The notes beneath the pieces were generated by a model. The model saw nothing but the letters and a program-made list of their open reading frames with translations. It did not search any database and was not told the DNA's origin. A stretch of DNA of 64,000 nt from the human T2T-CHM13v2.0 reference genome, Homo sapiens, in the NCBI RefSeq assembly GCF_009914755.1, contig NC_060947.1; one strand, given 5' to 3'. Each line of letters starts with the position of its first letter. The first letter of the stretch is position 1. The translations under genes and the position numbers were made by a program. Of this stretch, positions 1 to 25,517 are shown piece after piece.

Positions 1-467
1 ATTTCATGATATGACTGTTTTTAAGCATATCCAGTGCAGATACAGTCCTTTTAGTCCTTAAAATTCATGATATTGTGAGAAAAATATACTGTGAATTGTT
101 GCATTTAATCTAAAGTGATATACACATCTTAGTGCACTTTTATGGTAACAACTAGAATGAATTAGAGACGCATTCAGAATGAATATATTCCTGGTCACTC
201 ATTGCGAAAAGATTGGTTAATATACCACATTCATTACTTGTGCAATCTCCTCTTATTGCTATATTTGCATGCAAACGACTTAGTTTTTCCTTCAATTTAA
301 ATGAATTCTCTATTAGAAATAAAGATCCAAATGTAAAACCATAAAATAAAGTTTGTGGGCTGCTTTTATTAAAAGTGGTCCTAAAAAATTAGGAGAAAGC
401 CACGGGCAGATTAGTCTCATTTTTATATTCTCATTGAAATTTTAGCAAGTTTTAGGCAAAATAGGCG

Positions 468-716
468 TTATTTCATCTCATCTAGACTTGTTTTTTCTCA
501 ATAGTGATAATTGCTAGAAATAGAAATCATAAGGTCAGACTTAATTTTAGGGGAATGGGGTCAGGGTGGGTGAGTTGGGAGGGAAACAAAATAAAAGGAA
601 GGGGTACAATGAAAATAAGTTGGGTGAGGAAGGCAAGGAAGGAGTTCTGCATAAGTTTGTAGTTGCACAAATGTAGAAAAGTGGGATGTAAGTCACATAC
701 ACGCACACACCAAAAA
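468..716. repeat. Left arm of ~245 bp inverted repeat (partner 1391-1636)
   Basis: Reverse complement aligns to 1391-1636, e.g. TCTCATCTAGACTTGTTTTTTCTCAATAGTGATAATTGCTAG vs CTAGCAATTATCACTATTGAGAAAAAACAAGTCTAGATGAGA. Confidence 0.97.
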
Positions 717-1390
717 TAACTTGAACTTCATTCTTGTGAGTTTACTCCTCCTTCTTACCACCATTCCAAGTCCTTACCACACACACATTTCAGAGCATGT
801 CTGTCCCTTTAATGCTAGCTGTCATTCAGTTTAAAGCATAGATCAAATTTTGACTGACAGCGAAATGACTGCATTGCATCATTTTTAGATAGAGTAATTT
901 TAATGCTTTGCCATAATGAAAGCAGGTTGAAATTCTCATGTCTTTCTTTGTCGTGTTTCCCAATAGTGTTAGTTTTAATTGCTTCAATTGATGTTTATCT
1001 GTCATTACAAATTCCAATAAACTGTGAGAATACCACAGAAATAATCTCAAAAGCAAAAGAACAAAAACAAAAAATCATGCCAGAGATATTGTTTTATTTT
1101 TTAACTATCTCTAGAAAAGAGGAATGATAAACAAATTAATATTTTAATGAGGACTATAGGAAGAATGCCTAAATCACTGATTCAAGCTCTTCTAAAACCA
1201 CTTTAGCAACTTCCATTTACTGATAAATACTTAAGGCGTAGTAGATCTTCAAGAAATCTCAGATATAATCTATTCTAATCCATTCATTTTATAGATGAGA
1301 ACACTGAAAACATTTCTAGTGCCAGATCTGGGAGCAGGGCGTATGTGTCATGTCACCAGTCCATTGGGTATTTCCACTCTTCCTTCCTTC

Positions 1391-1636
1391 TTTTTGGTGT
1401 ATGTGTGTATGTGACTTACATCCCACTCTACATTTGTGCCACTATAAACTTTTCCAGAACCCCTTCCTTGCCTTCCTTATCCAATTTATTTTCACTGTAC
1501 CCCTTCCTTTTATTTTGTTTCCCTCCCAACTCACCCACCCTGACCCCATTCCCCTAAAATTAAGTCTGACCCTATGATTTCTATTTCTAGCAATTATCAC
1601 TATTGAGAAAAAACAAGTCTAGATGAGACAAAATAA
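1391..1636. repeat. Right arm of inverted repeat (partner 468-716)
   Basis: Manual alignment to the reverse complement of 468-716; spacer ~675 bp. Confidence 0.97.
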
Positions 1637-2006
1637 TATATAATAATAATATAACTTAATCACAACCTTATTTTTACTAAAGCAGGCCCGCCGATTGCCA
1701 ATAATTGGTTATCTCTTTTTAAAAACTGCATCTTACTACACTGCTTAAACGCAACCCAGCTACGTTTCTTTTCAAAATTATATGATTTAGACTTTTCACT
1801 ATATCAGAATTGCCTTCTTCCAAATTATTCTTAGTTACTGAAGTTTTAGCTGTAGTTGCATCTTAAAGCTTTGCTATTTTTCAAAGCAGAAATTTAGGAC
1901 ATAATGGTAAAGTTTTGTTTATATTTGCTGTCCTGGTATTTTTATCATCCCAAGATAGTTTCATAGAGTCCATGCCATGGATATAAAGAAAAAGGAAATT
2001 TAGCTA

Positions 2007-2325
<319 letters not shown>

Positions 2326-2817
2326 AAGAAAAATGATTTGTTGAAAAGTGTACTTCAAGACTTTTTAGATTGTGAAATCATTTTATAACCATTATCTGAT
2401 TTATGGCACATGATTTTTAAAAAATTAGCCACCCTCCAAAGCACATTCATTCCTGTGCAACTCAAAATGTCAAAATAAATACACGTGTAGAAAATCTTAT
2501 TTATAAAAATGGAAAACTTCCCTGAATATTTGTTGGACTCTTCTGTTTTGTTTTTGTTTTTTTTTTTTTGTTTTTTTTTTTTAAAAAGCTTGGGATTACT
2601 TATATTCTAGTCAATGCATATGCTGGTCATCTCAGAGCTCATTTCAGTATCTCATGACATAGACATATAGTGTCCTCATGCCTGTTTTTCACTGTCTGAC
2701 ATGGAACATGCCCTTGTTCTTCTCCTTTTCCCATCAAAGTGAATCATGTATGTGTTCCATTCTTTAGACACCTATTAGATGATTAACTGGCAGATCTGTA
2801 GATTAGTTTTTTGCATA

Positions 2818-4090
2818 TACTGTATTTCATCTATTTTAAGATTACATTGTTTTTCTACATGCTAATGTCTCTGAAATAGGGCTGCATCCTGAAATTCTAT
2901 GGCATCTTTTCATCAATTAAGAGTGACTTGTTTGTCATTTTCTACACAGCGAGATTTGTTCATCGCTGTTTATATGATCATCACAGCAATGTGTTATATG
3001 CTTTCTAGGTACTATATTACATGCATTGAGTTTAAAATGTCTCCAGAGAAACTATAATGTGATTCCTCATTGAAACAAAAGTTGTTATACATACAGGACG
3101 GTGCAGAAAAAGAGCAGGTACATGAGTTTGATGTTAGTGATTGTGGTAAACAGCATAATATCCCTCTTCCCTCAAAGATGTCCACATAGCCATCCTGGGA
3201 ACCTGTGAATATGTTACCTTACCTGGGGAAGGAGAATTAAAATTGCTAATCAAATGGCTTTAAAATAGGGAGATTTTCCTGGATTGTTTGGGTGGGTCCA
3301 ATGCAATCACATCACCAGAGTCTTTAAAAGTGGGAGAGGGAAGCAGGGGAGGAGTCAGAGTCGAGGGAGATGTGACTACAAAAGAGAGAATCAGAGAGAT
3401 GGCAGTGTGAATACATGGCCTGACATTGCTGGTTTTGAATGGAACCAGCTGGTTCCATTGCTGGTTTTGAATGAGCCAAGGAATGTGGACAGCCTCTAGA
3501 AGCCGGAAAAGGCAGGGAAACGGATTCTATCATAGAGCCTCGCGAAGGAATGCGGCTCTGCTGACAACTTTATTTTAGCCCTTTGGGACACATTTAGGAC
3601 TTCTGACTTCCATAACTATAAGACAGTGAAGTTTGTGTTGTTTCAGGGCACTGATTTGGTAGTAATTTGTTACAGCAGCAATAGAACGGTAATACAATTA
3701 TATTAGTGATTAGTGGAGAAAAGACTCTAATTTCTGATTTTCTGGCAAATAATAAACCAAATATTTTATAAAAACTAAAAAGTAAAAGATACCTACATGT
3801 ACTTGAACCTGCATTATATACCATTAAATTCTTACACATATATGTGGAAAATGATTATTTACCATACAACTAGTAGCGCAACTAAAGGCAGAAGACAGAA
3901 GAAATCGCCAAGTCTTTGGGATCTGATAAAAGAAATCTCAAAGCAACAAGAGACTGGTGGACCAATTCAAATAACACATAGAACTATCTGAGTCATAGTA
4001 TAATTTAAAATATTTGTTCTTTCTTAGGGATACATAAAATAATGGTGTGTCTTACAATTGATGTCACCTTTCATTCAATGAAATATGTTA
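2818..4090 (+). mobile_element. Old Tc2/mariner-type DNA transposon (Kanga/MER104-like), interrupted by an MLT1 LTR
   Basis: Degenerate terminal inverted repeats TACTGTATTTCATC... and ...ATGAAATATGTTA; transposase-start-like ATGTCTCCAGAGAAACTATAATGTGATTC near 3037. Family assigned from recall. Confidence 0.6.
3142..3696 (+). mobile_element. MaLR LTR, MLT1D-like
   Basis: TGTGGTAAACAGCATAAT start; AAAGATGTCCAC, GCCAAGGAATG and CTAGAAGCCGGAAAAGGCAGGGAA motifs; ends TTTGTTACAGCAGCAATAG..TAATACA. Confidence 0.85.
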
Positions 4091-4389
4091 ATATTAATTA
4101 GTGTTTATATCATAAGAGTAAAGCTCATTGTGTAAATTTTGGACGGAAATATATAAATATATAAATAAGAAAAGCGAAATCTTCCATAATTCCCCAGTAT
4201 CAGTCAGGATAGTCTAATTTGTGTTATTATAACAAGCAACCCCCAAATCTCAATTGCTGAAGCAACAAAGATTTATGGCTTGCTCATACTACCTGTCCAC
4301 TGTGGCAAGGCGAGCCTCTACTCATAATACCATTCAGATACTGAGGTTAATGGGGCACCACTGAGTTGAACATTATTGTTAGTCCTGTA

Positions 4390-4840
4390 AAAGTTCAATG
4401 AACCTCAAGCACGACAACATGAGAAAAGTATAACAAAGCACATCAAAATCAAATTGCTTAAAACCAGCAATGAAGAGAAAAATCTTAAAAGTAGCCAGGA
4501 GTTAATGAACAAACTTGGAGAGCTAACACTATCTTATTTTGAGATTCATTATATACTTACAGAGCAGTGTAATTGTAGCCTAAAAATAGGCAAGTAAATC
4601 AACAGAACAGAGTAGCAAGTTCAGAAAGAGATCCACAAGTGCATGGACAACTGATTTTTGACAAAGGTACACAGGCAAGTCAATGGGAAAAGGATAGTCT
4701 TTTCAACAAATGTTACTGCACAATGTGATATCAATATGCAAGAAAATAAACTGTGATACATACCTTGCGCCATATATAAAATTTAATTCAAAACGGGTCA
4801 CTGGACTCAAATATACAATCTAAAATAACACTTGTAGAGA
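4390..4840 (+). mobile_element. Old L1M fragments (ORF1/ORF2 pieces)
   Basis: GAAAATCTTAAAAGTAGCCAG; CTGATTTTTGACAAAGGTACAC..CAATGGGAAAAGGATAGTCTTTTCAACAAATG. Confidence 0.8.
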
Positions 4841-6039
4841 AAGGGACAGCAGTCTATGGCAGTAGACTGACTTTCTGTTTTTGTAAATAAAGTTTTTTTG
4901 AAAAACAACTCTACTCATTTGTTTGCATATCGTCTATAAGAGTTTCCATGCTATGACAGGGTTGAGTAGTTGTATTTCTAGGACAATTGAAAGAGAACAA
5001 GAGAGAGAAACAGATTATGCTTTATAGTAACTGGCATTGCCATAGCCTTTACAGAGGGTCTTGAATTACTGCCTTTGGAAGAAAGTGGCATAGTTAAAGT
5101 ATTTAGCTTTCTGATTATTCTCAAAGAAATACTTCTAATCTAAACCATTACCATGTGTAGTCTTTGTGTCCCCATTCTTGTAAGTTACATAATTAGTAAT
5201 TAATCAGTCTTTGATTTTATTTTATCACTGTGATTTTCCTGTACAAGGGTTTTAAGACTTATAAGTCTGGAAATCATATAATTTGGTGGTAATTTAGAGG
5301 GCATGTAAGGGGCTCAGAAGTCCTCTCTCCTCACAAATTTGTCACCTATGACAGGTACCTAAAATTCTACCATCACTTCTGTCCCACAGTTACTTAAAAT
5401 TTTGACGCCTTTTATATGTTATTACAAATGGCTTATTTATAAGAGCATGCTGGGAATGGGGAATATATAAAGCATGAAGTCAGTTTTCACCTGGTAGGGA
5501 CAAAAGGGTAGTGCATCCCTGAAGATGCAGAAGAACATCAAAGATGAGTCTAACTCTTACAATTTTGCTGAGGCTGCCCCTGGTGACACCCCACTGAAAT
5601 ATATTAAAGCAAACAATTCCAGTTGCAAGTGCATTTCAGCACAAAACAGATATAGTAGGACCACTACCATTGAGTTTCTCTCCTTCAGTTTGTAGGGTGC
5701 TGATATCACCACAAATTAAAAATAACCAAATAGAAATCACTTTTCTTGCTTTCTATTTTGCCAGAACACCCAGATGCAAAATAAAATATTCAATCTCCCA
5801 TCTGGATATTTTGTCTCTGTGATGCCAAATATACAAATGCTTCCAAAGTGCTGAACTATTGATGACATTTTTCATCTTTCCTTTACAATGTTTTGACACT
5901 GGCGATGCAAGTGCTGTATCCAATTAGAAGTTTTACTTCTCAATAAACTGCTCAATTGCATCAATAGCCACCTCCACTTCACTGAGTTGTGTTCATCTAC
6001 TGACAACTTACTATAATGGCAAAAAGTGTGGACAATGTG

Positions 6040-6240
6040 GGTACACTGCTAGAGTCCAAATCCCTTTTCAGCTGCTTACTAGCTGTGTTACCTTAAGGGA
6101 GTTATATAGCTTTTCCTTGCCTATTTCTGCATCTGCAAAATGAAGATAATAAGCATAACTACCAGAATTGTGGCCAAAATTAACTCAGATAAATGTAAAG
6201 TGCCAGGCATATAATGAACATTCAATAAATAATATCTTTC
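6040..6240 (+). mobile_element. MIR SINE
   Basis: CTTACTAGCTGTGTTACCTTAAG..TTTCTGCATCTGCAAAATG MIR core. Confidence 0.75.
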
Positions 6241-7293
6241 TGTTATTCCTTTTAGTAAAGCATTCATTGATGTCATAGAGCTACCTTGGAACCGGGAGTG
6301 AATAACCCTGGGGGCTCCTAGGTCCTCAGTCTTTTCTTCCATTTGTTAAAAGAGATCTAGAGTGACTTGAATGGTGCAAATGCCAAGCCAAATCAGTGGT
6401 GGGGGTGCAGGACCTTGCAATACCCTTCAAGCACACGCAGACCTGCCTGGGCATGTGATCCCATTCTTTCCCATGTGTTTACAAAGTGAGCAAGGCAGGG
6501 GGTCTTCTTTCATTTTGTTATAAGTAGCTACATGATTATAAAACGGGATAACAGCCATTGCTAATCTTCCCTATTCAATGCCAGAGGAATTTCCTCTTAT
6601 TAAGGACCTTTGTCTTGGAATTTGGATTTAGGATTTTATAACCTCAATGGAAAAAGAGGAAGGGAAAATAAGCTATTTAGTGTTGTACATTCCAGCCTGA
6701 AACAATTGTCCTTCAGATATGCACCCTACGGATGCAGCTGTTGATTTGGGAGGTTACTTTTGTTCAGAGGTGAGTCAGCCCTTAGCCAAACTATGAAGGA
6801 TGCAGTGTTGATCCTTTGAGTTCCCCTGCCTCCCTTTGAGTGTTCTTTGGCCCCTGTGTAATGCCTCAGCCTAAGGTGTCCAGTGTATTCTTGATGGTTG
6901 GGATCTTCCCTCCCAGCAATGAAGGAAAGAGATTTGATAAATTATTTCACAATAATGTGTCAGATCCTAATTTGTTACCTCTCTGAGAGAAACTTTGAAA
7001 GACACTGCTTATAAAGGAGAAATCCTTATTGGTGGGCATTGCACCATAAAGAGTCTCAGGGAAGGAAGGGATGCAGACAGAGATTAGGAGACTCTGATCT
7101 TCATATCCCAACTAGCTATTATATTGGAGTCTAAGGCCAACCCCACCTTGAGCACGTATCAAGAGGTAGTGATCACAAAGTTAAACTGTTCAAAAATCAA
7201 TAATTAAAACTACCATTCCCCCAAGTGTCAGTGAATCTCTGGGGCTGAGATAACCTTCGAAGAGAAATAACGTAAAGCTAAAAGAAAAACATC

Positions 7294-7638
<345 letters not shown>

Positions 7639-10451
7639 TCAGGGTGGTTAAGACACCCCACGCTTTTTGGGATCAAGAGAAATATTCACTTTCAGTTCAA
7701 ATATCTGTACCCTATTGGAATACATAGCTTTAGGAACTCACTGAATGTTTGTAAATCAGAATTCAAAATTATCTATCTTGACAATATCATTGTTCTTTTT
7801 TTTCTAAATAAATGAAATGTAGCATCTTTTTGCAAGAATTTTGATATGATAACTAAACTTGATAGGAGGTTCAGCATCTTTATAATTTTATTGCATATTT
7901 TACTGATTACATAAGGATCTTATAAAATAATTGCTTATAACATTATTTATTGCAAAGAGCAACCATTGTAAATTAGGAATCCATTATTTTTATTTTTCCC
8001 CTGCTTATAGAATTCTGAACACAAGTCCAAAACCACTTTACTATAGTCTGTATACGTGTCAAAATAGCCATGATGTCATTCAAAATTTCTATTATTTGAA
8101 CTGAATCAACATAAATTAGAATGAAAGCACTATATGATTTTAGAAGCAGCAAAACTAAAAGCTTTACATTTTAAAAGCTTGATACTATTAATAGATGGAT
8201 GGACCCTGGATTGCTTGAATAGCCTAATTTATTGCAGTAGGAATAAATTAAGTCATTAAAAAAAAATCCCACCAGATATAGACATGCCTTTTTTTTAATA
8301 CTTAAAACGTGGCAACAGATTTCTTCATTAGTATGTGTTGTACATCTCTTCCTACTTATAGATTTAAAAACTCATATTTTACAAGGAGAGTGGAATACAC
8401 ACCTCCCTTCTATGGCCCATCTTTTGAGGCAAAATTGTATTTAAAATAAGACTTCTGTAAATTCTACCCCTACGGTGTTTTTCCCTTTCCTGACTTGTAG
8501 TCACCCAGGAGTTTGTTGCTCTGTCTCCATTTTTATGGTTAATGTTGCTCTGAGAAAAGAATTACATGTCAGTCATTTTCACGTTACAATGAATTCAATT
8601 CAGTGTGCATGGGGAAAAAAATCTAGCATTTTAAAATAGTATTTATACAATTGTATGTATACAATTATACACTGTGCCAAAATAAGTCTGTTTGTATAAA
8701 AGAGATAACTTGCTAAGGTATTTACCTACCCTCACCTTAAGGGAGATGATTTAAATTTGCCAAGGCAGAAATGTTGCCACATGCTTTCATCAGCAGCTAA
8801 GAAGGGAAGTATGTTTGAATGAAGGCCACATCTGAACGTGAACCATAGAACAGAGGTTTTGCTTAAAGAGAAAAATTGCTTCAGACCCTTCTGAAAAGAG
8901 GAAGTTCCATTATTCTTAAAATAAGTCAGTTTCTTTTATATTGTGGGTTTTCACAAAATAATTACAGAAAAAGCCATGTAGAAATCTTTTTGCTACAAAA
9001 CCACAAATAGGCTGGGAGAGAAAAATGGAGAGTGAATAAATTCATCCATCAAATTAAGAAAGAAACTGATAGTTATCATTCACTGTCTTCTTTTTTTGGT
9101 TTATTTGAAGAACTGAATTAATTGCTTTACAGCTTTACTTTGTGCTTGTATGTGGGTAATTCACTGTGATACAATAACATTAGAATGATATTTTCTAAGA
9201 CTTTTTAGTTTTCCAATCAACAACCACAAACAATCCAGATCACTGGGCAGCAATAATGCAAGAAAATGTAGGATTATTAATAAATTGATTAAGCTTTTTG
9301 TAATATTAAAGGAATTTCAGGCATCAGACAGGAATGAGCAGGAGAGTTAATATTTGAAGAGATAGGGAGCTTATCACAGTAGGTAGTTCATGTACCTAAA
9401 TGTAACATCACCCTGCCAAGCAAGGATACCAGGTTACACGTATGTACTTTTCATAATAGATTGATGTTTTGTGGTAAAATCTCTGCTATGAAGAGGACGT
9501 AATCAATCTCATTTTACTAAAAGGGCCATTCAAAAGGCAGTTCATATATTTGCAAAGTGAAGGTATCTAATTATCATTATCTGTGAAATTGTTTTCTCTA
9601 AAAATTCTCTGAGATGTTCAGATATAAGACTCAGAGCAAAATTTCTAAGACATGGCCTTGGAAAATTATATAGATATTTTTCTAAAATGTCATTGGTCAA
9701 ATGATATTCATTGACTGTAAGTATAACTCAATTTAGTACCCTGCATAATACTACCTTCAAAGCATGTATATGATGCATCAAAAGCCTACTCATACAGGAG
9801 CTATAAAACATACGCCTTATAAATCCTTTTCCCCGACTGTAGATCTTTACTTACTGTGGCAATTCCCATAACTCAGTATTATTTGAAATTCCGGACACCA
9901 TCTGAAAGCAGAAAATTTTGTCTGTTTACCAAGTATACATGTTACCTATTTGGGGAATTGCAGAATGTGGTTACTTTAATATATTCCACCTCTTTTGACT
10001 ATGAAGTGTTTATATCTTGCACTAAAAATGTACTTTCATAGTAGATATTGGGATAATATAACGAGTACATTATTTAAAAAATTTTAAGTTGTTTTAGGTT
10101 GTTTGTTCAGCCAAATTTTATAACTTACAAATATGGGACTATGAATGTTGTCAACAAGCTAAATGATCATTATAGTCAGTAACTTTCACCATTTTTCATC
10201 ATATTGCTGATCATATCATTGCAAAAATTAACACACACCTGATTTATCTGGAATCCATAAATATTCATGTATACTTATTTATCACAAACTGTCACAGAAC
10301 TAGCACCATATCAACATTAGCTTTTAACTTGGGAATGCAGTAGACCATTGGTCTATGCACCCAATTCATCAAACTCAGTATTTTATTCATATTTGAAAGA
10401 GGTATTTATACAAATTTAACACATTTTGTTTGGGGATTTGGAAATAACCAA

Positions 10452-10750
10452 GGACAGATGTGGTGGCTTATGCCTATAATCCCAACACTTTTGGGAGGCT
10501 GAGGAGGAAGGATTGCTTGAGCCCAGGGTTTCAAGACCAGCCTGCACAACACGGCAAGATCCAGTCTCTACCAAAAATTTTAAAAAAATAAAAAATTAGT
10601 CAGGCATGGTTGCCTGCACCTGTGGTCCTAGCTACTCAGGAGACTGAAGAGGCAGGATCACTTGAACCCAGGAGGTCAAGGCTGCAGTGAGCCATGTTCA
10701 TGCCTGGGCAACAGGGAGAGACCCTGTCTCAAAAAAAAAAAAAAAAGAGA
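10452..10750 (+). mobile_element. AluJ
   Basis: GGATTGCTTGAGCCCAGG and GGAGGTCAAGGCTGCAGTGAGCCATG J-type motifs; A tail. Confidence 0.9.
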
Positions 10751-11059
10751 GAGAAAAGAACCGAAATGATTGTATTCACAAATACTAAGTAATTTTCTTC
10801 TTAAACCTGATCCCCTTGGAAAATTGAGATTGAAAGATGATTGCAGTTGTTAAATTTCTGTTTTTTTAAAAAAAAAAAAGAATAAATATCAAATTTTATG
10901 CAATATCTTTGTTCAGTTCAAGAGCCAGAAAAAGTATGCTATTTTATTATACTTTACTTTTCTACTTTATTAAAGGAATACTTGCTTTATAAACTAGTCA
11001 CCAAAAACCAAGTTTAAAAGGATTGGAATGTGTCAGATGTGGAAAATTTCAGATAATCT

Positions 11060-11215
11060 CAATTCTGCCACTTGCTAATCAAAGTGACTTTAGCCTTACC
11101 TAAGTGGCATGAGGCCACTTTAAATTCCAGTTTCCACATCTATAAAATGATGATACTTGTTCCTTATTTATTTGATGTTATATAGTAAGCATTCAATAAA
11201 TGTCACCTATTATTT
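11060..11215 (+). mobile_element. MIR fragment
   Basis: CAGTTTCCACATCTATAAAATGATGATA; AGTAAGCATTCAATAAATG. Confidence 0.65.
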
Positions 11216-11910
11216 TTGTTATTATTACATGACTATATCAAAATTTGAATAAAAGAAACCAGGCCTGACAGTTGGCTTATACAGGCATGGCTTCTTTCAG
11301 CATTCGTAAGTATATTTAGTACTCATGTGTTTTCTTGTGATTTCAACCTTTTCATGTTCCTGAAATTCTTTAGAATTCCATGACAGCTTTGTTTCTCAGA
11401 TAGGTGTTCCAATATTTAACTGAAATACTATATCTCATTAGCATGAGAAAGAAAAGAAACTTTTTCGCTGAGGAATGTGAGCCCCTTTTACTTATCAGAC
11501 CCAGAAAGCCATTGAAATGTCACAGCAATAATGTCTTACATCGCCCCCTGCCTTAGCTCCCCCACCACTTAAGCTAAGTAATCATTTCAAAGCCAACTGC
11601 TACATGGACACTAGAGTGAGTTTTGCTGCAAATACCTTATAAATTAACCTAACAATGACCCAGGCTGGACACCGTAATTCATACCCTGCGGTTCAACAGT
11701 GCATAGGCAATCACAAATAAATGTTATTTCTGTAAACCAATGACAATTCTAGAAAAACAACTTTTGTGATTGCCTCCTCTTCCGATTCATCCTTTTATCT
11801 TTAAAAACTTGAACCTTCCCTTTGTTCTCTGGACCACTTCCCAGTGTTTCCCGGGCTACCGTCCTCAACTTGAGGCCAAATAAAATCTCTATATTAATTT
11901 GCCACAGTGT

Positions 11911-12250
<340 letters not shown>

Positions 12251-12372
12251 CCTCCTTTCTTCTTGGCTGAGGTCTAGACGTTATTCGGTCTGCTTATTTC
12301 AACTCTCTCTTTCTAGAAAAGAGGTTCCATATTTTCCTCCGGACAAGAGATTCACATTTTAGGGAGATTTAA

Positions 12373-12477
12373 AAAGAAGAGGAAAAGAAAAAGAGAAGAA
12401 AAGAGAAGAAAAGGGAAGGGAAGGGAAGGGAGGAAGGGAGGAAAGAAAGGAAGGGAAGGGAAGGGAAGGGAAGAAAC
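12373..12477. repeat. Polypurine (GAAAA/GAAGG)n low-complexity tract
   Basis: ~100 bp of almost pure A/G. Confidence 0.9.
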
Positions 12478-13164
12478 CTGCCTGCTCTACCCCTGCTTCA
12501 CAGCTAGTGGTCCAGGTCATGGTATTAGCAGTCCAATGACACCACTGGTTTTACTTTTTTGGCCTAAATCACATAGCATTCTTTTCAAATGGCTGTTGCT
12601 TTGTATTGTTTTTAATTCAGACTTGTTTTTGTCTTATTTGTGACCAATGCTTCTTAGTTTTAAACTAAAATGTGCACGAAAGAGAGTTCTTTTGCCCCAA
12701 AGTTAAGGGATTTCAAAGTTTTGTTTGTTCATTTGTTTTTTAATACAGAGCCCTCTCGGTCCCTTGGAGATATAAATCTTACCATGTCCATGAAATGTTA
12801 ACATCCAGGGAATTAGCTAAGCAACATTCCAGCTGAGATCAGATTTGAAACAGAGTTAAAGTCCTTTAGACCAGCACAAAATTCCTTTCCTCAGTGGGTA
12901 ACTTTAGCTTAAGAGATAAATATTTATAAAAAATTAATTTGAATTACTTGTTTTAAATTATTTGTGTGACTCTTGACCTTTGAGGGCATACATTTGTAAT
13001 CCTTTCTACTGAAGAAAACCAAAATATCCCTCTCTAAAATACTGGAGATTGTTGAGCTGAAGACAGGTATAATCCAGAGGGACTCTCTTTGCTTTTCCTC
13101 TACTTGTCTGATGGCAGGACAGCAATTTACAAAGACAAAGATTTTCCTGCCTGCCTTTTCCCAC

Positions 13165-13571
13165 TGCATTAAGACTACTGCACTGCTATAAAGGAATACC
13201 TGAGACTGGATAATTCACAAAGAAAAGAGATGTATTTGGCTCACGTTCCTTCAGGCTGTACAAGAAGCATGATGCAACCATCTGTTTCTGCTGAGGGCTT
13301 TAGGAAGCTTCCGATCATGACAGAAGGTGAAGGGGAGCAGTGGTGTCACATGGTGAGAGAAGAGGAGGCAAGAAAGAGAGGAGAGAGAGGGGTGCCATAT
13401 TTTTAAACAACCAGTTCTTGTGTGAACTATTAGAGCAGAAATTCATTACTTCATTACTCCAAGGACAGCACCAAGCCATTTATGAGGGATCTGCCCCCAT
13501 GACCCAAACCCTTCTTTTACGCCCTACTTCAAACATGAGATTTGGAAGGAACAAATATCCAAACTATATCA
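13165..13571 (-). mobile_element. MaLR LTR (MSTB-like)
   Basis: TGCATTAAG..AAAGGAATACCTGAGACTGG..CAAACTATATCA; perfect 5 bp TSD CCCAC. Confidence 0.88.
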
Positions 13572-14145
13572 CCCACCTAATAGCAGCCTTCTTTACAACA
13601 CTTGCTTATCAGCTCAGAGACAGCAGCAACAAAGGATCTAGAAGTCGACTTTACTCTTCCCATCAATTTACCCTCCCACATTTTTCCAACTTTTGGCACC
13701 ATTCCCATGGCTGCTTTTGTTTTCCTTTTTTACTATCTCTTTTAATCGTCCATTTGGGCTTCGAACATAAACAGTTAGCTGAGAACTGAGACCTTAGAAA
13801 ATATGGCCTAACACATGTGAGCTGCACTCTATTTGCAGCTAGACTCCATTTGCAGTTAGCAAAACTTTGACCATTTGTAAATCAGGTCATCTGCCTTTTT
13901 GTTTTTGATTTGTAAGAGTTTACTATATATTCTGGATACAGATCCCTTATCAAATATATAACTGACAAACATTTTCTCCCATTCTGTGGGTGGTCTTTTC
14001 ACATTTTTGATGGGGTCCTTTGAAGCATAAAAGTTTTTGATTTTGATAAACTCTAACTTATCATTTTTTTTCTTTTGTTACTTATACTTTTGGTGTCATT
14101 TCTAAGAATCCATTGCCAAATTCCAGGAAGATTTTCACTTACATT

Positions 14146-15805
14146 TTCTTTCAAAACCGGCACAAGACAAGGATGCCCTCTCTCACATTCCTGTTCAATA
14201 TAGTGTTGGAAGTTCTGGCCAGGGCAATCAGGCAGGAAAAAGAAATAAAGGGTATTCAATTAGGAAAAGAGGAAGTCAAATTGTCCCTGTTTGCAGATGA
14301 CATAATTGTATATCTAGAAAACCCCATCGTCTCAGCCCCAAATCTCCTTAAGCTGATAAGCAACTTCAGCAAAGTCTCAGGATACAAAATCAATGCGCAA
14401 AACTCACAAGCATTCCTATACACCAACAACAAACAAACAGAGAGCCAAATCATGAGTGAACTCTCATTTACAATTACTACAAAGAAAATAAAATACCTAG
14501 GAATCCAACTTAGAAGGGATGTGAAGGACCTCTTCAAGAACTACAAACCACTGCTCAAAGAAATAAAAGAGGACACAAATGGAAGAACATTCCATGCTCA
14601 TGGATACGAAGAATCAATATCATGAAAATGGCCATACTGCCCAAGGTACTTTATAGATTCAATGCCATCCCCGTGAAGCTACCAATGACTTTCTTCATAG
14701 AAATGGAAAAAACTACTTTAAACTTCATATGGAACCAAAAAAGAGCCTGCATTGCCAAGACAATCCTAAGCCAAAAGAACAAAGCTGGAGGCATCACACT
14801 ACCTGACTTCCAACTATACTACAAGGCTACAGTAACCAAAACAGCATGGTACTGGTACCAAAGTAGATATATAGATTAATGGTACAGAACAGAGCCCTGA
14901 GAAATAACACCACACATCTACAACCATCTGATCTTTGACAAACCTGACAAAAACAAGAAATGGGGAAAGGATTCCCTATTTAATAAATGGTGCTGGGAAA
15001 ACTGGCTAGCCATATGTAGAAAGCTGAAACTGGATCCCTTCCTCACACCTTATACAAAAATTAATTCAAGATGGATTAAAGACTTAAATATTAGACCTAA
15101 AACCATAAAAACCCTAGAAGAAAACCTAGGCAATACCATTCAGAACATAGGCATGGGCAAGGACTTTGTGACTAAAACACCAAAAGCAATGGCAACAAAA
15201 GCCAAAATAGACAAATGGGATCTAATTAAACTAAAGAGCTTCTGCACAGCAAAAGAAACTACCATCAGAGTGAACAGGCAACCTACAGAATGGGAGAACA
15301 TTTTTGCAACCTACCCATCTGACAAAGAGCTAATATCCAGAATCTACAAAGAATTTAAACAAATTTACAAGAAAAAAACAAACAACCCCATCAAAAAGTG
15401 GGCAAAGGATATGAACAGACACTTCTCAAAAGAAGACATGTATGCAACCAACAGGCACATGAAAAAATGCTCATCATCACTGGTCATCAGAGAAATGCAA
15501 ATCAAAACCACAATGAGATACCATCTCATGCCAGTTAGAATGGCGATCATTAAAAAGTCAGCAAACAACAGATGCTGGAGAGGATGTGGAGAAATAGGAA
15601 CGCTTTTACACTGCTGGTGGGAGAGTAAATTAGTTCAACCATTGTGGAAGACAGTGTGGCAATTCCTCAAGGATCTAGAACTAGAAATACCATTTGACCC
15701 AGCGATCCCATTACTGGGTATATACCCAGAGGATTCTAAATCATGCTACTATAAAGACACATGTACACATGTTTATTGCGGCATTATTCACAATAGCAAA
15801 GACTT
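14146..15805 (+). mobile_element. L1PA (L1PA7/8-like) ORF2 fragment covering the RT and C-terminal domains; frameshifted; no 3'UTR or poly(A)
   Basis: ORFs 14113-14625 (LFADD), 14622-14879 and 15153-15818 ([16 protein letters not shown]) are L1 ORF2p sequence. Confidence 0.97.
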
Positions 15806-18800
15806 ACCTAGTTGCTAGTGAGAACAACATCTTTATTTCTTTTTAATCATTCACAATTTAATGATAGGTTATTTGTAGATAGCCTTTATAAGGTTGAGGA
15901 GGTTTCCTTTTACGACTTATTTGTTGAGTATTTTTATTATGAAATGTCATTAAATTTTTCACAGGCCTTTTTGGTGTCTTCTGAAAAACAGTATGTAGTT
16001 TTTGTCCTTTATTGTATCAATATGGTTGTACAACACTGTTTGATTTTAGTCAATCCCAAATTCCTGGAATAAATCTCACTGAGTCATGATATATAATCCT
16101 TTTTATATGTTGCCTGATTTGGTTGCTAGTATTTTGTTGACTATATTTGCATTTACAGCCTTAAGGTATATTAGCCTGTACTTTTCTTGTGATATTTTTT
16201 CTGGTTTTGGTATCAGAGTAATATTGGCCACATAGAATGAGTTAGAAAGGGTTCTTTTTCCTCTATTACTTATAAAAATATGTGAGGATTTCTGTTCATT
16301 CTTTTTGGTAATGTTTGCTCAAATTCATCAGTGAAGCCAGCTGGACCTGGATTTTCTTTGTGAGAAGTGTTTTTGTTACTAATTCCATCTCTTTACTTCT
16401 TATAAGCCTATTCAGATTTTTTATTTCTTTCTGAATCAGTTTCAGAAGTTCGCATCTTTCTGAAAATGTATCCATTTTATCCAGGGTATCTAATTTTTTG
16501 GTGTATAATTGTTCCTAGTATTCTTTTATTATAATTTTTTTCTGTCATGTTACTAATGACATCTTCTCTTACATTCCTCATTTTAGTAATTTGAGTTGCC
16601 TTTTACATGTTAGTTTTTAATTTCCTTTATCTTTTCAAAGAATCAACTTGCAGTTACACTGATTTCTCTTTTTTCTCTTAACTTTTGTTTTTCTGTTCTA
16701 ATCTTTTCACTTACTTCCTTTTGCTTGTTTTGTATTTAGCATGTTCTTCTTTTCCTAATTTTTTAAGGTGAAGTGTTAATTGATATGAGAGCTCGCTTTT
16801 TTAATATAGGCATTTAATAGCTACAGATTTCACTGTAAGCACTGCTTTAGCTGTGTGCATAGTATGCTATGTTTTCATTTCCTTCTACTCAAATTATTTC
16901 CTAATTTCCTGTGATTTCTTGCTTTCCCGTTGGTTATTTAGGAGTGTGTTGTTTAATTTTCACATACTTGTGAATTTCCCAAATGTCCTTCTGTTGTTGA
17001 TTTCTAAATTTCATTCTATTTTAGCTAGAGAACATACTTTGCATTATTTCAATACTTTTAAATTTGCTGAGACTTGTTTTATGGCCTAGCATAAGTGTTA
17101 TTCAGGATGAAGTTATACAAGGGCTTGAGAATCGTATGTATTTTGCTGTTTTGAGTGTAGTATTCTATATATGTGTTTGGTCTAGTTTATTTATAGTGTT
17201 GTCCAAATCTTATTTTTTCCTTGTTAATCTTGTGTCTAGTTGTTCTTTTCATTATTGAAAGAAGCTGTTGAAGTCTCCAATAATTATTGTTCAATTGCCA
17301 ACATTATTTTCCCTTCAATTCAGACAGATTTTGCTTCATGTATTTTGGGCTTTGTTGCTACCTACATGTATATTTGTAATTGTTATGGTTTTCTAATGGA
17401 TTCATCTTTTTAACGTTATAGAATATCTTTCTTTTTCTCTAGAAATATTCTTTGCACTACAGTCTATTTTGTTCAATAGTAATATAGTTACTCCAGCTCT
17501 GTTTTGGTTACTGTTGCATTATATATATTTTCCATCCTTTTGCTTTACATTCATATGTCTTTTTAAATCTAAAGTGTGTCTCTAGTAGATAGCCTACAGT
17601 ATGATCCTGATTTATATTTTATGCATTCTGTTACTCTGTACCTTTGAAGTATCCATTTTGCTATTTGTTTTCCACATGTCTTATCTCTTTTTGTTTCCTC
17701 TATTTCTGTGTTATTGCCTTAGGATTTTTGGCATTTTTAAAAATTTTATTTTACTATCAACTGAAAATTTATTAATTGTATATATTTATGTTTACGGGAT
17801 AGCCTTGTTTTGTATAAAATAGACATTTTCAAGTGTACCATTTTAACTTCCTTTTTATTTCTTTTACCATTCTTTTAGTTATTTTCTTAATGGTCCTCCT
17901 TGTGATGACAGTTAATATCATATCTTAAAAAGAACTTGTTTAGATTAATACCAACTTACTTTGATCAGTATCCAAAAGTGTAGCTCTAATCCAACTTTGT
18001 TTTTTTCACCCTTCTTTGTATTATGATTTATTGACATAGAAACTATATTGTACCTTGGAAGCCTACTAATAGTTTTATAATTATTGTTTTATGTAGTTGT
18101 CTTTTAAGTCAGATAGGAGAAGAAAATAGTTACAAACAGAAATATACTGATCCTGTATTTTATATTCATCTATGCAGTTACCTTTATTAGTGTTCTTTAT
18201 TTCTTCATGTGGATTTGAGTTTTTGTCTAGTGAAAATTTTTTTTAGAGTGAAGGACTCCTTTTGGTATTTCTTATAGGAAAGGTCTACTCATTATGTCAG
18301 TTATTTTTTGTTATTTTTAAAATCTTGGCACATCCTAATATCTCCATTTTTGAAACATAGTTTGCTAGAGATAGAATTCTTGGTTAATGGGTTGCTTTTT
18401 TCACTTCAGCATGATACATATGTCATCCTACTGCCTTCTGCCCTCCACATTTCCGATAAGAAGTTAGCTGTTACTGCTATTAAAAAATACCTTGTATGTA
18501 GAGCTATAATTCTTTTACTGCTTTCAAGATTCTCTTTGTGTTTTGGCACTTTGTCTATGATGTGTCTGGGTGTAGACTACTTTGAGATTATCCTACTGGA
18601 AGATTGTTTTGCTATTTGAATGTGCAAATTCATGTTTTTTCATCAAATTGTGTTAGCCTTTAGAAATTACGTCTTCAAATATTCTTTCTGTTCTTCGAAG
18701 CTTTCTCTTCTCCCTCAGGGACTTCAGTGTCTCACATATCTTTGAGACTACATTAATTTTCTTTATTATTTCTTCTTTCTGTTCTTTACTATAATCACAA

Positions 18801-19543
18801 TGAACTATATTCAAATTTTCTTATTGTTTCCTTGACAGTTGCAATCTGCTATAGAACTCCTCTAGTGAATTTCTCATTTCAGTTATTGTGATTTTTAAAC
18901 TACTGAGTTACTATTTGGTGCTTTTAAAAAATAATGTCTATCTCTTTGTTGACACTCTCTCTTTAGTGAGAAATCATTGCCATACACTCCTTTATTTTTT
19001 TAGACAAGATGTTTTTTAGTTACTTGAACATATTTATAATTGCCTATTTAAAATCTTTATATAATAAATCTGACATCTTGGCTTCCACCATGACATTTTC
19101 TATTGACTTTCTTTTTTTTTTTTCTTTGTATGGGCCATTCATTCCTGTTTCTTTGTATGTCTACTTTTTCTTTAAAATACTTGACATTTTAATATAACAT
19201 TGTAAATCTTGAAATCAGAACTTCTTCTCCCAGGGTTTGTTGGTCTTGCTGTTAGCTGTTTTGTTGTTGTTGTTTATATTGTTATTGTTCCTCGTTTGCT
19301 GACTTTCTTGGACTGATACTGTAAAGTCTGTTTTCTTTGACATATGTAGCCACTAAAGTGTCTCCTTGGTTAGGTTAGTGATTAGCAAGACAGAGGTGTC
19401 CTTAAATGCCATGAACCAGTAATTCTCCCAGCCACTGCCAAGGATTTGGTATAGTTTTTAGACATGCCTCAAATATTCCTGTAATTAACAACTCTGTTAT
19501 CCTTACTTTCAACTTCTTCAGAGGCTTAAGATTAGTCAGACTT

Positions 19544-19823
<280 letters not shown>

Positions 19824-21724
19824 CTAGATTCTCAGAAATATGTTGACATTTTCAAAGATTGTTATGAATGTCTCATTCACCAGTTTTTCCTTTTAAGTTT
19901 TTAGTCAACCTCTTGTTAATTGCTTCAGGTAGCTGCAGTGTTAAACAACTACCACTTTTTGTGAGAAAATTTTTTAGGTATAGGCTTATTTGTACAGAGT
20001 GAGCTCTGATTCAGGTCCATTAAAGACAACCCTGAGAATAGAGCTATTTAGGGAGTTTCCAGACATTTCAAATAGTCACATTTCTCAGGGAATGGGTTTT
20101 GTGGAAGAACATGCCTGTTTCTGCTTCCTCTAGTGGTTGCTAAAATGCAAGTTTTCATGACTACTGCAGTAGTGAGGCTGTTGATTTCAAGACTCTCACA
20201 AATCTAGGGAGTGAAGAATAGTAATAGAGCGAGCTAACACATCACAGAGATTGCAGTTCTTACAGAAGTTTAGCTGTTTTTCTTGGAGAAATACTCCTTG
20301 CAATGTTGCAAGCCTTTGATTAATTTCCAGAGTTTTAGAAAGGTTTGTTTTGATGATTTTTTCCAATGTTCCGATTGCTTTTCAGAAGGAGAGGTTTTTG
20401 TAAAGCTACTTTTATTAGGACCTTTGACAGCTTTGACTTTTTGTTCATAGCTGCAGAACATTATGTCTTCTACAATATAGTAATACATTCTTCTAATAAA
20501 TCATCTTTGCACAGTGTGAAGGGAACATTTCAATAGTTGAATATTTGGGGATATAAACAAAACTGTCTGTTATATCAAAAGTATAGCCTCATTTAATTTT
20601 TATTTTTCAGAAAGGTTTTGCTGCCTCCATAGATAGCATGTCTTTGGGAAATATAATTCCATGAGAATTTTGGTAGTGATAGTTCTCATTTCGCTCCCTC
20701 CCCGCAGTACGCATACACATTTATTCTTCCTCTCTGGATATTAGCCAGCAAGGCTAATTTTATTGCAAGGCCCTGTGGCATACTAGATACTTCTATTTCA
20801 AATGATATAGACAGTTACAGAATGTTTATCATAGTCTACTGAAGTTTGAATGATACATATTACAAATACAGTTGTTACACAGTCAGCATTCTTCAGACCA
20901 GATGGGTCTGACATGGAGGATCACAGAAAGTTAGAAAGATCGCCATTCTCAGATTTATTTCAGTTTGTGTCTTTTCCAAGGAAATTTCAATTTAGTATCT
21001 TTGAATGTAACCCAAGAGTAACTCTCAGGTTTGGTCTCTGAGTGAGGTGTTCCAATCTCACATTTTATAATACTAATTTCCTAAATAATTAGCAGTGGGA
21101 ATGGTCATTACATTTTTCAAGTGATGCCTGCAGATTTAAAAATTAGGGTTTTAAAAATCTGTCTATTCCAGAGTCTGAATACCTTGGCATTTGGAGCAAC
21201 ATGAAAGAAACACTATCTTGCCTATAGCAAACAGATTTTTCAGCTTAGGTTCTGCATCTCTTGCCCTTTCAGTAGTTTATTGAGCTGTTCCAAGTTTACC
21301 ACTGGTTAAATGGAGTACAAGAAAATAGCATTCATTAAAGCTTGCTTAATCCAAGGAAACTTGGCCTGAGAATGATCTTTGATAGAGCCATTGTTGTACT
21401 TCAAATTACATTTAAATTACTCTAAGACAGATATTCAAATGTAAAATGTAAAAAGCACAAGTGTCACAGAAACACTTCTTGGGATCTTTGGGGAGTTACT
21501 TATACCAATAATGCCTCTCTCAGCTGCATGAAAGGTACAATGATATAAAAATCTCAAGCTCTTGGTTACTTATGAAGGGCTTTACTATGTGGCCAGGAGT
21601 TGACAGACTAAATGTACACTGTTTGAAACTGTGTATATTTCTCTATAATTTTTAGTAGTTACCCATGAAAACAATGCCATTTAAATACCATTACTCTTGG
21701 CTATTGCTGCAACAGTAATTTTCA

Positions 21725-21890
21725 AAGAAGAGTATTATCCTGCACATCTGGGTGATATTTTTCATTGTCCAATGACTGGGATACCATATTAGCAACTAGT
21801 GACTATTAGTCAGAGACACCAAAAAGTCCCACATAACAAAGACTTGTCACACTCAAAATTTTAATATGGTCCCCTTTAAGAAACAGTGAG
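21725..21890. mobile_element. MER20-like hAT DNA transposon remnant
   Basis: CTGGGTGATATTTTTCATTGTCCAATGACTGGG..CCCACATAACAAAGA..TTAAGAAACAGTG. Confidence 0.5.
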
Positions 21891-22249
21891 AAATGGAATT
21901 GCACTTTAGTCATAATAGGCAATATCTTATGATGATGATGCACTTTTTTCATAGTTGCATTCCTCAAGATGACATCCATTGCAACAGGTCAGAATTCTTT
22001 ATGAGTGCTGCATTATGGCCCACTTCACGCTTAAGAACAAACATGAGGATTTCAGAGCTGAATCAACGTTAGACTCTTAAAAAACAATTGTATCATGTAA
22101 GTATCTACTTTGTAGCTCCACCTTAAAAGCTATGGATGGCCTTTGTATAAATTTACTACTACTTGCCTATGGAAAGGACTCTATTACTGAATTAGAAGTT
22201 AGGTCTATGATGGAACAAGTGTGACCATTTAGCATTTAAGTCTAGTTGC

Positions 22250-23006
22250 ATTTCTGCATTGATGCAGGCAGACCTTTCTTTGTCCGGATCTAGGACAGAT
22301 TAACTGAGATCCTGACACTTTTAAAGGTCTGAAAAAAACATGTAAAACGTATTCTCCCTGAGGGCTGCTAACAGTGAGGTTTCATCTACATAACAAGACC
22401 ACCTTTGCTAGCCAGACCTCTTCTTCTCCCCTTCCCATAACCTGTCTTGCCACCATCACCTGATTTACCAACATAACTGTTCTGAGCCCCTATTTTTTTC
22501 TCTAACCTCAAGATGGTGTTTAAGCTTCTGTATCCCATTGCAGAGTTGGTGTAATTACTTTGTGATTCTTCCATGTACATGTTAATAAATTTGTATGCCT
22601 TCCTTCCTATTAATATGCCTTTCTAAAAATTTTATTTATAAAGACACGGTCTCACTATGTTCCCCAGGCTCAATTACAGTGGCTATTCATGGGTACCATC
22701 TCACCACTGATTAGCAAGGGAGTTTTCATCTGCTCCACTTACAACCTGGGCCAGTTCATCCCTCCCTAGGTGACTTGATGGTCCCCTACTCCCTGGCAAT
22801 TACGATATTGATGGCAAACAGTGTGGACACTCTATCAGCATAGTGCACTACAGCCTGTTACCGGACACAAGTGATTCTCCTGCCTTGGTCTCTGGAGTAG
22901 CTGGGACTATAAGCATGCCCACTGTACCTGGCTAATCTGCCTTTTGTCAGTTGATATTTCAGTGAATCTTCAGAGAGTGAAGGGAATGTTTTCCTTCCCC
23001 CGTATA
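22250..23006 (+). mobile_element. ERV1 solo LTR (MER39/MER34-group), interrupted by a 7SL retrocopy
   Basis: CATCTACATAACAAGACCACCTTTGCTAGCC; TTAATAAATTTGTATGCCT; homologous in reverse to 43836-44406. Confidence 0.75.
22623..22932 (-). pseudogene. RN7SL: Full-length processed 7SL (SRP) RNA pseudogene
   Basis: Carries the S-domain that Alus lack (antisense GGCTATTCA..GGAGTTTTCATCTGCTCC..CCTGGGCCAGTTCATCCCTCC..CATAGTGCACTACAGCC); degenerate T tail; TSD TAATATGCCTTT / TAATCTGCCTTT. Confidence 0.92.
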
Positions 23007-23286
23007 GGGGTTAGGAGATCAGTATATGAATTTGGGATTATGAAAGGAAAATAAAATCTTGGGACCCCAAACACACTAAGCCAAAGGGAAAAGTCAAGCT
23101 TGGGAATTGAGTCATAGAAAATTGTCTCCCATTTTTATTCCTACAAAAATTAAAGGCCACATACTTCCCCAGGAAGCCTCCCTCACAATTTGCTCACAAG
23201 GAACTTCCTCATAGGTCGCAAGATATTTACCCTAAAACAGTTCTGTTGAATTTCATGCTGACAAGGTAATTAACAGCTTATCTTCA

Positions 23287-23738
<452 letters not shown>

Positions 23739-24076
23739 TCACTGAGCACAGGCCAGTGCATAATTGACTGTTCTTCTATCCCCTCCTTTTACATATAAAA
23801 TGTAGATTCAGTGAACACTGATGAAAGCCTCAGAAGAATGGAACCACCTGCAGCTTTATCTACCCTACCCCAACATTTTGTTTCTTTCTTGGTTCTCCTA
23901 CTGCCCACCCTTTCCCCTTGAAATACTGGAGTCCCCAAGCCCCCTTTGAAATAAAAAGCACAAATCACAGATGTCCCTGTGGGTTTTGTGTTTCTTTTCC
24001 CTGAGCCCATCCTCAACCTTGGCAAAATAAACCTTGAAATTGATTGAAACCTGTTGCAGATACTTTTGGGTTTACA

Positions 24077-25060: not shown

Positions 25061-25063
25061 TCA

Positions 25064-25517
25064 GGTCTTAAAGCTTGAAACTTACATTTCTTTTATCTAA
25101 GTTCCTTCCTCAGGAAAGGACCCTCAGACCTCTCAAAAAGTATCAAAGAACTGAAACTTACCAGATCACCGCATCTAGACAATGAGATGACAGACCCCTC
25201 ATCTGTCATGATTGCTTCCTTACTCCTCATTAATTCCTGTTTTCCTAACCAAGAAACCAAGACTTGCTTCTTGTTGACCAACTCCTCTCACTTTACCCCT
25301 CCCTATTTCCTATTTTCACACATATAGTTACATTTCTTCCTTGCTATATAAACCCTTAATTTTAGTCAGGGAGATTGATTTAAGACTGATCTCCCATCTC
25401 CTCAGCTACAGCACCTGATTAAAGCCTTCTTCCTTGGAAACATTCGTTGCCTTAGTGAATGGCTTTCTGTGCAGCGAGCAGCAGGATCTAGACCGAACCT
25501 CTGGTGTTTCAGTAACA
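25064..25517 (+). mobile_element. 5' LTR (5'-truncated) of nested class I provirus, LTR26/LTR23-like
   Basis: Direct repeat of 32005-32873; TATATAAA box, ATTAAA signal, ends GTAACA; followed by a tRNA-Glu-like PBS TCGTTCCCTGATC at 25523. Confidence 0.88.

What the first reader, a model, noticed from the sequence alone, without database searches (positions are those of the whole stretch)
468..1636. Non-transposon ~245 bp inverted repeat with a sharp identity gradient: candidate recurrent micro-inversion or gene-conversion site
Seen: 468-716 and 1391-1636 are reverse complements around a ~675 bp spacer. By my manual alignment, the outer ~130 bp differ at one position (plus two at the extreme edge). 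The inner ~110 bp carry about 11 substitutions and a 3 bp indel. I recognise no repeat family in the arms. Known: close inverted repeats homogenise by gene conversion and mediate NAHR inversions. Inference: this is an old local duplication whose outer part was recently converted, and the spacer may be orientation-polymorphic. If transcribed, it would form a long dsRNA stem.
Basis: partly seen in the sequence, partly recalled or inferred. Interest (0 to 1): 0.7.

Follow-up and report, generated by a model that had tools for sequence, protein, structure and literature searches.

The report
Re-copied inverted duplicate inside XACT
A unique 250-base piece of the human X chromosome sits as two facing copies 670 bases apart inside the span of the long non-coding RNA XACT; its outer half was likely re-copied from one copy onto the other long after the duplication, an ordinary process, and no flip of the middle was found in the inversion lists checked.

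Summary
The inverted repeat is real: arms 468-719 and 1388-1636, 92.9% identical, spacer 668 bp, only two copies found in the genome. Positions 476-608 differ at 1 of 133 sites, 609-719 at 13 of 109 columns (post hoc p about 0.001-0.035). (1) It lies about 36 kb inside XACT (minus strand), which the gene table omits; on that strand the outer arms are predicted to form a 150-bp unbroken helix, the longest of 43 close inverted pairs in 264 kb. (2) A six-run G-quadruplex motif lies inside the near-identical tract. (3) A 2005 human-chimpanzee table has a chrX row of 249 versus 246 bp, 95.12%, that fits left arm against chimp right arm, so the right-arm type with its 3-bp gap likely predates the split. 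The locus is absent from a 612-entry inverted-repeat inversion catalogue and from a 65-genome inversion sheet, but was probably never genotyped. Best reading: an old small inverted duplication whose outer part was later homogenised arm to arm (conversion or template switch, possibly G4-triggered). A recurrent micro-inversion is unsupported. Known kind; modest interest.

The parts
468..719 (+). Left arm of the inverted duplication (249 bp to 716; carries 3 extra bases at 677-679)
1388..1636 (-). Right arm (246 bp from 1391)
476..608 (+). Near-identical outer tract of the left arm: 1 difference in 133 bp (partner 1496-1628); likely conversion or template-switch tract
609..719 (+). Diverged inner part: 12 substitutions (8 transitions, 4 transversions) and a 3-bp gap in 109-111 columns (partner 1388-1495)
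468..475 (+). Outer edge: 6 matching bases then 2 transitions (CA against TG); either old homology with one CpG decayed on each strand, or junction microhomology
   Evidence: both readings are inference
550..583 (+). G-quadruplex motif with six G-runs in the left arm (G4Hunter peak 2.04)
1521..1554 (-). Same G-quadruplex motif in the right arm, G-rich on the minus (XACT-sense) strand
720..1387 (.). Unique spacer, 668 bp, no internal inverted homology (p=0.94)
1259..1299 (+). 41-bp piece with a 90% match elsewhere on chrX; looks like a MIR core (family name recalled, from no call), so the spacer is likely old genomic DNA
469..1635 (-). Predicted RNA stem in XACT sense: unbroken helix 469-618 with 1486-1635, 150 bp, 4 G-U pairs
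   Evidence: prediction
1..37475 (-). Part of the XACT transcription unit; published TSS amplicon at 37375-37475, '-2kb' primer at 35533, RT-PCR primer at 6907

Best explanation
Two facing copies of a unique 250-bp sequence, 668 bp apart, differ at about 12% in their inner part and at 1 of 133 sites in their outer part; they likely arose as one small local inverted duplication tens of millions of years ago, and the outer part was likely overwritten later by the other arm through gene conversion or a replication template switch. Shown: the anatomy, the two-copy status, the gradient, the G-quadruplex motif in the tract, the place inside XACT's published span. Inferred: (a) origin by a templated inverted copy, the commonest inversion-type class in long-read surveys; (b) one or a few homogenising events of 130-150 bp, probably before the human-chimp split or else right-to-left on the human line; (c) as the most specific trigger (about one in three within this reading): a polymerase coming from the spacer side stalls at the inner edge of the G4 (583 or 1521), the new strand pairs with the other arm and copies outward to the end of homology, which would give identity from just inside the G4 (608) to the outer edge, from either fork direction. 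The long XACT stem would be a by-product.
For: Gradient p=0.0011 and 0.035, most extreme of 80 local pairs. Inner differences have an ordinary spectrum, 8 transitions to 4 transversions, 1 at a CpG, no clear clustered-mutation signature (read by eye). Tract length inside the CI of human non-allelic conversion, mean 250 bp, 63-1000, with escape as copies diverge (10.1101/135152, passages). Inverted duplications: 277 events, median 284 bp (PMC12350158, passages); two more small inverted duplicates, 97 bp at 94% and 136 bp at 89%, lie within 30 kb. Feuk 2005 Table S1 row chrX 113003180-113003428 (249 bp) against chimp 246 bp at 95.12% = 234/246: same lengths as a strict alignment of the two human arms, 12 mismatches against 14 between the human arms; about 26 would be expected had the chimp outer part stayed unconverted relative to the human left arm. 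G4 motif inside the tract: 19 other such motifs in 264 kb, chance 0.008 for a random 133-bp tract. Template switches that perfect inverted repeats are described in human (PMC5453318, PMC7954356, passages); G4s stall forks (PMC12708500, passages).
Against: No ape or population sequence could be aligned, so the defining test (arms grouping within species) is not done. The change-point p is only 0.035 and the locus was selected for the pattern; 0.001 times 80 pairs is about 0.08. The G4 link was found after the fact, and both arms offer the same G-rich template, so a switch does not plainly escape the block. The published template-switch passages that I saw concern much shorter events than a 900-base jump. 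The Feuk row is tied to this place by lengths, identity, zero in both content columns and build offsets that I recalled; its column heads were not seen; that table had only 11 of 60 BAC-checkable rows confirmed, and the row passed a reciprocal-best filter that a plain cross-arm alignment should have failed.
Confidence: 0.6

Rival explanations
1. One duplication of middling age (about 6% divergence) with no later exchange; the gradient is chance clustering of 16 changes.
For: Change-point p only 0.035, exact-run p 0.044; locus selected for the pattern; Bonferroni over 80 pairs about 0.08.
Against: One-mismatch run of 133 bp, p=0.0011; no other local pair exceeds 63 bp and the null looks calibrated, 5 of 80 under 0.05.
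Confidence: 0.13
2. Two steps: an old 110-bp inverted repeat primed a later template switch that copied 140 bp of the other arm's outer flank, extending the repeat outward; the 6-bp edge match is the return microhomology.
For: Identity runs almost to the outer edge and homology stops abruptly (outer flanks p=0.30); 6 matching bases then 2 mismatches at the edge.
Against: The edge pair CA against TG also fits one old CpG decayed on each strand. If the extension were human-only, the chimp row should be about 140 bp at about 99%, not 249 bp at 95% (inference); an extension before the split is not excluded.
Confidence: 0.12
3. Recurrent micro-inversion: crossovers in the outer tract flip the spacer and keep the tract homogenised; both orientations exist in people or apes.
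For: Validated inversions have inverted repeats as short as 140 bp and segments as short as 197 bp (PMC13629690, abstract and results); repeat-mediated inversions recur and are poorly tagged by SNPs (PMC6748972, passages); small inversions are easily misaligned.
Against: No X row with 11395 in the 612-entry hg38 table; chrX rows go from 110.96 to 118.41 Mb in the 65-genome sheet; no spacer-sized row among the 3 hits for 11300 in the human-chimp table; only 6 of 319 inverted duplication pairs picked without prior evidence were polymorphic; longest exact match 76 bp.
Confidence: 0.09
4. Selection keeps the outer arms alike because XACT uses the 150-bp duplex or the G4/duplex switch.
For: All 4 differences in 468-618 are G-U pairs on the XACT strand, giving 150 bp unbroken against 76 bp on the other strand; longest predicted helix of 43 close pairs; the duplication looks older than XACT's promoter (about 20 Myr) and the homogenisation younger (inference).
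Against: Only 6 of all 11 transitions are wobbles on that strand, as chance gives (read); XACT has limited identity across primates; no paper held XACT, A-to-I and double-stranded RNA together; no conservation or editing data seen.
Confidence: 0.05
5. Terminal inverted repeats of a DNA transposon, or an assembly artefact.
For: Paired inverted ends around a short interior resemble a non-autonomous element.
Against: Two copies only, against 1621 candidates for a repeat control; no direct repeat in the outer flanks (p=0.87); MIR-like bit inside; the same arm lengths appear in an independent human build and in chimp; 16 differences tell the arms apart.
Confidence: 0.01

Closest known systems
Non-allelic gene conversion between nearby paralogues (Harpak et al., 10.1101/135152)
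   Same: Tract of 130-150 bp of near identity inside older duplicates; rest escaped by divergence.
   Different: Their rates come from gene duplicates, mainly 5% or less diverged; here a 250-bp non-genic pair, with the tract at the outer end and holding a G4 motif.
Small inverted duplications (277 events, median 284 bp; Schloissnig et al., PMC12350158)
   Same: Size and local inverted copy of unique sequence.
   Different: Those are polymorphic and young; this one is diverged and likely shared with chimpanzee.
Short-range template-switch mutations and quasi-palindrome correction (PMC5453318, PMC7954356)
   Same: Near-perfect inverted repeat made more perfect by copying the other arm; may also flip the spacer.
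   Different: Examples seen there span tens of bases; here about 140 bp across a 668-bp spacer.
Inverted-repeat (NAHR) polymorphic inversions, InvFEST/GeONTIpe sets (PMC6748972, PMC13629690)
   Same: Unique segment between inverted repeats over 90% identical; size at the lower edge of the known range.
   Different: No second orientation reported; not in the 612-entry catalogue.
Feuk et al. 2005 putative human-chimp inversion, chrX 113003180-113003428 in hg17 (PMC1270012, Table S1)
   Same: Very likely this left arm: 249 against 246 bp, 95.12%.
   Different: Listed there as a putative 249-bp inversion; its low identity points to a cross-arm alignment, not a flipped segment.

Membership tests
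Non-allelic gene conversion tract | Local excess of identity between paralogues over their background divergence | tested here: met
   1/133 against 13/109; p=0.0011 and 0.035; most extreme of 80 pairs; post hoc
Non-allelic gene conversion tract | Tract length of tens to about 1000 bp | tested here: met
   133-141 bp against mean 250, CI 63-1000
Non-allelic gene conversion tract | Paralogues group within species in the tract and by position outside it | not testable with these tools
   No ape sequence on hand; only one summary row for chimpanzee
NAHR polymorphic inversion | Flanking inverted repeats of at least about 140 bp, over 90% identical | tested here: met
   252 columns, 92.9%; range
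NAHR polymorphic inversion | Both orientations observed | tested here: inconclusive
   Absent from two inversion lists; locus not shown to have been genotyped; two other searches had no working positive control
NAHR polymorphic inversion | Recurrence: orientations mixed across haplotypes or species | not testable with these tools
   No haplotype data
DNA transposon or MITE terminal repeats | Dispersed copies in the genome | tested here: not met
   2 candidates against 1621 for a control; weak for very old families
DNA transposon or MITE terminal repeats | Target-site duplication at the outer ends | tested here: not met
   Outer flanks share no direct repeat above shuffles, p=0.87; junctions read by eye
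Segmental duplication | At least 1 kb and 90% identity | tested here: not met
   250 bp; definition as quoted
Small inverted duplication (long-read SV class) | Local reverse copy of unique sequence, a few hundred bp | tested here: met
Small inverted duplication (long-read SV class) | An allele or outgroup without the copy | not testable with these tools
   The chimp row is open to a draft gap or a true absence of the left arm
ADAR-edited long dsRNA | Both arms in one transcript and a long duplex | tested here: inconclusive
   Inside XACT's published span; 150-bp helix predicted only
ADAR-edited long dsRNA | A-to-I editing observed | not testable with these tools
   No RNA reads; literature search empty

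The most novel reading that the evidence does not exclude
A G-quadruplex inside each arm drives repeated, polar fold-back copying from the G4 outward, in several ape lineages, and so keeps a 150-bp unbroken double-stranded stem (with a competing RNA G4) in XACT, the best duplex in the part of this X-coating RNA that was surveyed; the stem is edited or bound and matters for XACT behaviour.
Probability: 0.06. Interest if true: 0.75.

Novelty: new member of a known kind. Interest (0 to 1): 0.3.

Why it matters
As most likely read it is one more small inverted duplication with a conversion-like tract, and matters little. It is, however, a compact natural test case: one alignment of complete ape assemblies would show whether homogenisation starts at the G4 and runs outward, a polarity that ordinary conversion does not predict. 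It also marks the first place to look for double-stranded structure or editing in XACT, and explains one row of an old human-chimp inversion list as a likely cross-arm alignment.

Tried and rejected
Rfam scan of 1-3000: only Alu-derived and sub-threshold matches, none on the arms. Third copy of the arm or spacer in 264 kb at low stringency: none above noise. Homology beyond the arm ends, outward or inward: none. Porubsky 2023 supplements (PMC10150506): no hit, but the positive control also failed, so this negative is dropped. Schloissnig supplements (PMC12350158): no hit, file cut when stored and no inversion table seen; dropped as evidence. Porubsky 2022 was not held. QTRT1P1 as a literature anchor gave 1 unrelated paper. 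PMC13669635: outline only, not used. PMC11794170: passages only; its repeat catalogue (200 bp, 80% or more) should by its thresholds include this pair, but I did not see the list. APOBEC-type or other clustered mutation of the inner half: 1 of 5 G/A differences in a TC context, read by eye; rejected. Which arm is the copy: the purine skew runs on from the right arm into the spacer and flips at the left inner junction, a weak hint that the left arm is the copy; not relied on. A chromosome-wide base rate for such pairs was not obtained; the background is the 264 kb in hand, each 10-kb stretch scanned alone, so pairs across stretch ends are missed.

Full report
Observation. The window holds an inverted repeat with arms 468-719 and 1388-1636, 252 columns, 92.9% identity, E 2e-103, spacer 668 bp. 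There are 16 events: 474, 475, 532, and 13 between 609 and 717, one being a 3-bp gap. The tract 476-608 has 1 difference in 133 (95% CI 0.02-4.1%), the inner part 13 in 109 (6.5-19.5%). Against random placement the one-mismatch run has p=0.0011, the best change point p=0.035, the longest exact run (76 bp) p=0.044. Of 80 repeat pairs of 200 or more columns within 9 kb of each other in 264 kb (37 inverted, 43 direct), this is the most extreme; 5 of 80 fall under 0.05 and the next longest run is 63 bp. The gradient is probably real, but the tests are post hoc and the locus was chosen for it.

Not a transposon. The arm and each half give 2 candidates in the whole assembly; a 97-bp L1-like control gives 1621 (family name recalled). 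The search is weak for very old repeats: a MIR-like bit at 1259-1299 gave 1 outside match (name recalled). No homology goes beyond the arm ends and the outer flanks share no direct repeat. Rfam finds nothing on the arms.

Context that the gene table lacks. Published XACT primers (PMC6906429 supplement) map at 37375 and 37456-37475 (TSS amplicon), 35533 ('-2kb') and 6907 (RT-PCR). XACT runs on the minus strand over GRCh38 chrX:113,740,044-113,991,913. The repeat thus lies about 36 kb downstream of the TSS, at about GRCh38 113,955,000-113,956,200 (my estimate). That XACT is largely unspliced is recalled, not checked. Folded on the XACT strand, 469-618 pairs with 1486-1635 as one unbroken 150-bp helix with 4 G-U pairs; on the other strand the longest helix is 76 bp. 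Among 43 inverted pairs of 80 or more columns within 5 kb in 264 kb (window plus 20 stretches scanned one by one, microsatellite self-hits included) it is the longest on the XACT strand, 151 columns by alignment; next come 72 (a microsatellite) and 69 (Alus 4.6 kb apart). Over the whole arm 6 of 11 transitions are wobbles on that strand, so the four outer ones are no sign of selection. A full-text search for XACT with A-to-I and double-stranded RNA found 0 papers.

G-quadruplex motif. A six-run motif lies at 550-583 (+) and 1521-1554 (-), inside the near-identical tract; 19 others occur in 264 kb, so a random 133-bp tract would hold one with chance 0.008. A polymerase coming from the spacer meets it at its inner edge in either direction; pairing of the new strand with the other arm and copying outward would give identity from near the G4 to the outer edge. 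The inner boundary (first difference 609) is 25 bases inside the motif. This is inference, found after the fact. G4 fork stalling (PMC12708500) and template switches that perfect inverted repeats in human (PMC5453318, PMC7954356) were seen as passages; the examples there are much shorter.

Chimpanzee. Table S1 of Feuk et al. 2005 (PMC1270012; hg17 against panTro1) has the row chrX 113003180-113003428, chimp chrX 116853434-116853679, lengths 249 and 246, two zero columns, 95.12. Identity there is matches over aligned length without gaps, so 234/246, 12 mismatches. A strict local alignment of the two human arms ends at 468-716 and 1391-1636, 249 and 246 bp, 232/246. My estimate of the hg17 place, from partly recalled offsets and made before the search, was 113,001-113,004 kb. 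I take the row as human left arm against chimp right arm. If so, the right-arm type with its gap predates the split; a human-only overwrite of right by left is excluded (about 26 mismatches expected); homogenisation before the split is about 3 times likelier than a recent human-only overwrite of left by right. The row does not tell whether chimp lacks the left arm or the draft had a gap; it passed a reciprocal-best filter that I cannot fully explain; only 11 of 60 checkable rows of that table were confirmed; I did not see the column heads (duplication and repeat content inferred from the methods). All 3 hits for 11300 are accounted for, and none is a spacer-sized inversion.

Inversion. The locus is not among 612 candidates flanked by inverted repeats (PMC13629690 Table S1, hg38: the one hit for 11395 is a chr17 size; X rows seen in plain numbers). 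In the inversion sheet of 65 genomes (PMC11451754, file cut when stored) consecutive chrX rows go from 110.96 to 118.41 Mb. Two other searches were uninformative. Size does not exclude an inversion: validated repeats go down to 140 bp. But 6 of 319 inverted pairs chosen without prior evidence were polymorphic, and small inversions are easy to miss. bioRxiv supplements and variant files outside the papers could not be seen and may bear on this.

Reading. An old small inverted duplication (class: 277 events, median 284 bp; two more small inverted duplicates within 30 kb) whose outer 130-150 bp was later homogenised arm to arm; human non-allelic tracts average 250 bp and cease as copies diverge. 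The inner 12% is about ten times the 1.23% human-chimp figure, so the duplication likely predates XACT's promoter (about 20 Myr), and the homogenisation likely follows it. Confidence 0.6; chance 0.13; outward extension 0.12; recurrent inversion 0.09; selection on RNA structure 0.05; transposon or artefact 0.01.

Papers seen. PMC1270012: first part of the text, passages, supplement hits. PMC13629690: first three of eight parts, one supplement part and hits. PMC6906429: passages, one supplement part. PMC12350158, PMC10150506, PMC11451754: supplement searches (passages too for the first). 10.1101/135152, 10.1101/2025.01.03.631201, PMC6748972, PMC11794170, PMC5453318, PMC7954356, PMC12708500: passages. 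PMC13669635: abstract and outline. The claim that this repeat is not described as such rests on searches and the supplement look-ups above; it may be an unnamed entry in repeat catalogues.

Verdict. Interest 0.3; the G4 polarity and the XACT stem are the cheap, testable upside.

Noticed in passing
window 1-37475: The gene table omits XACT, yet its published TSS amplicon maps at 37375-37475 and an RT-PCR primer at 6907; the listed enhancers at 34494-35193 and 39111-40139 flank this TSS, and LOC102724491 (+) runs antisense inside it.
   Followed up: partly
L007:446-542 / 1113-1209: 97-bp inverted duplicate, 94% identical, 570 bp apart, within L1-like sequence; looks like a templated inverted insertion.
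   Followed up: partly
L007:6848-6982 / 7901-8036: 136-bp inverted duplicate, 89% identical, 918 bp apart, around a long CA/TA microsatellite.
   Followed up: partly
window 23042-24067 and 40421-41087: Direct repeat pieces of 274 bp (86%) and 366 bp (77%), 17 kb apart, LTR-like by size; not identified.
   Followed up: no
window 49892-50203 / 50751-51063: Inverted Alu pair only 547 bp apart, 84% identical, upstream of the classic XACT TSS but inside the longer 443-kb form reported in K562.
   Followed up: no
window 459-465 and 1629-1635: The same 7 bases occur just outside the left arm and at the outer end of the right arm; possibly junction microhomology, possibly chance in AT-rich DNA.
   Followed up: no
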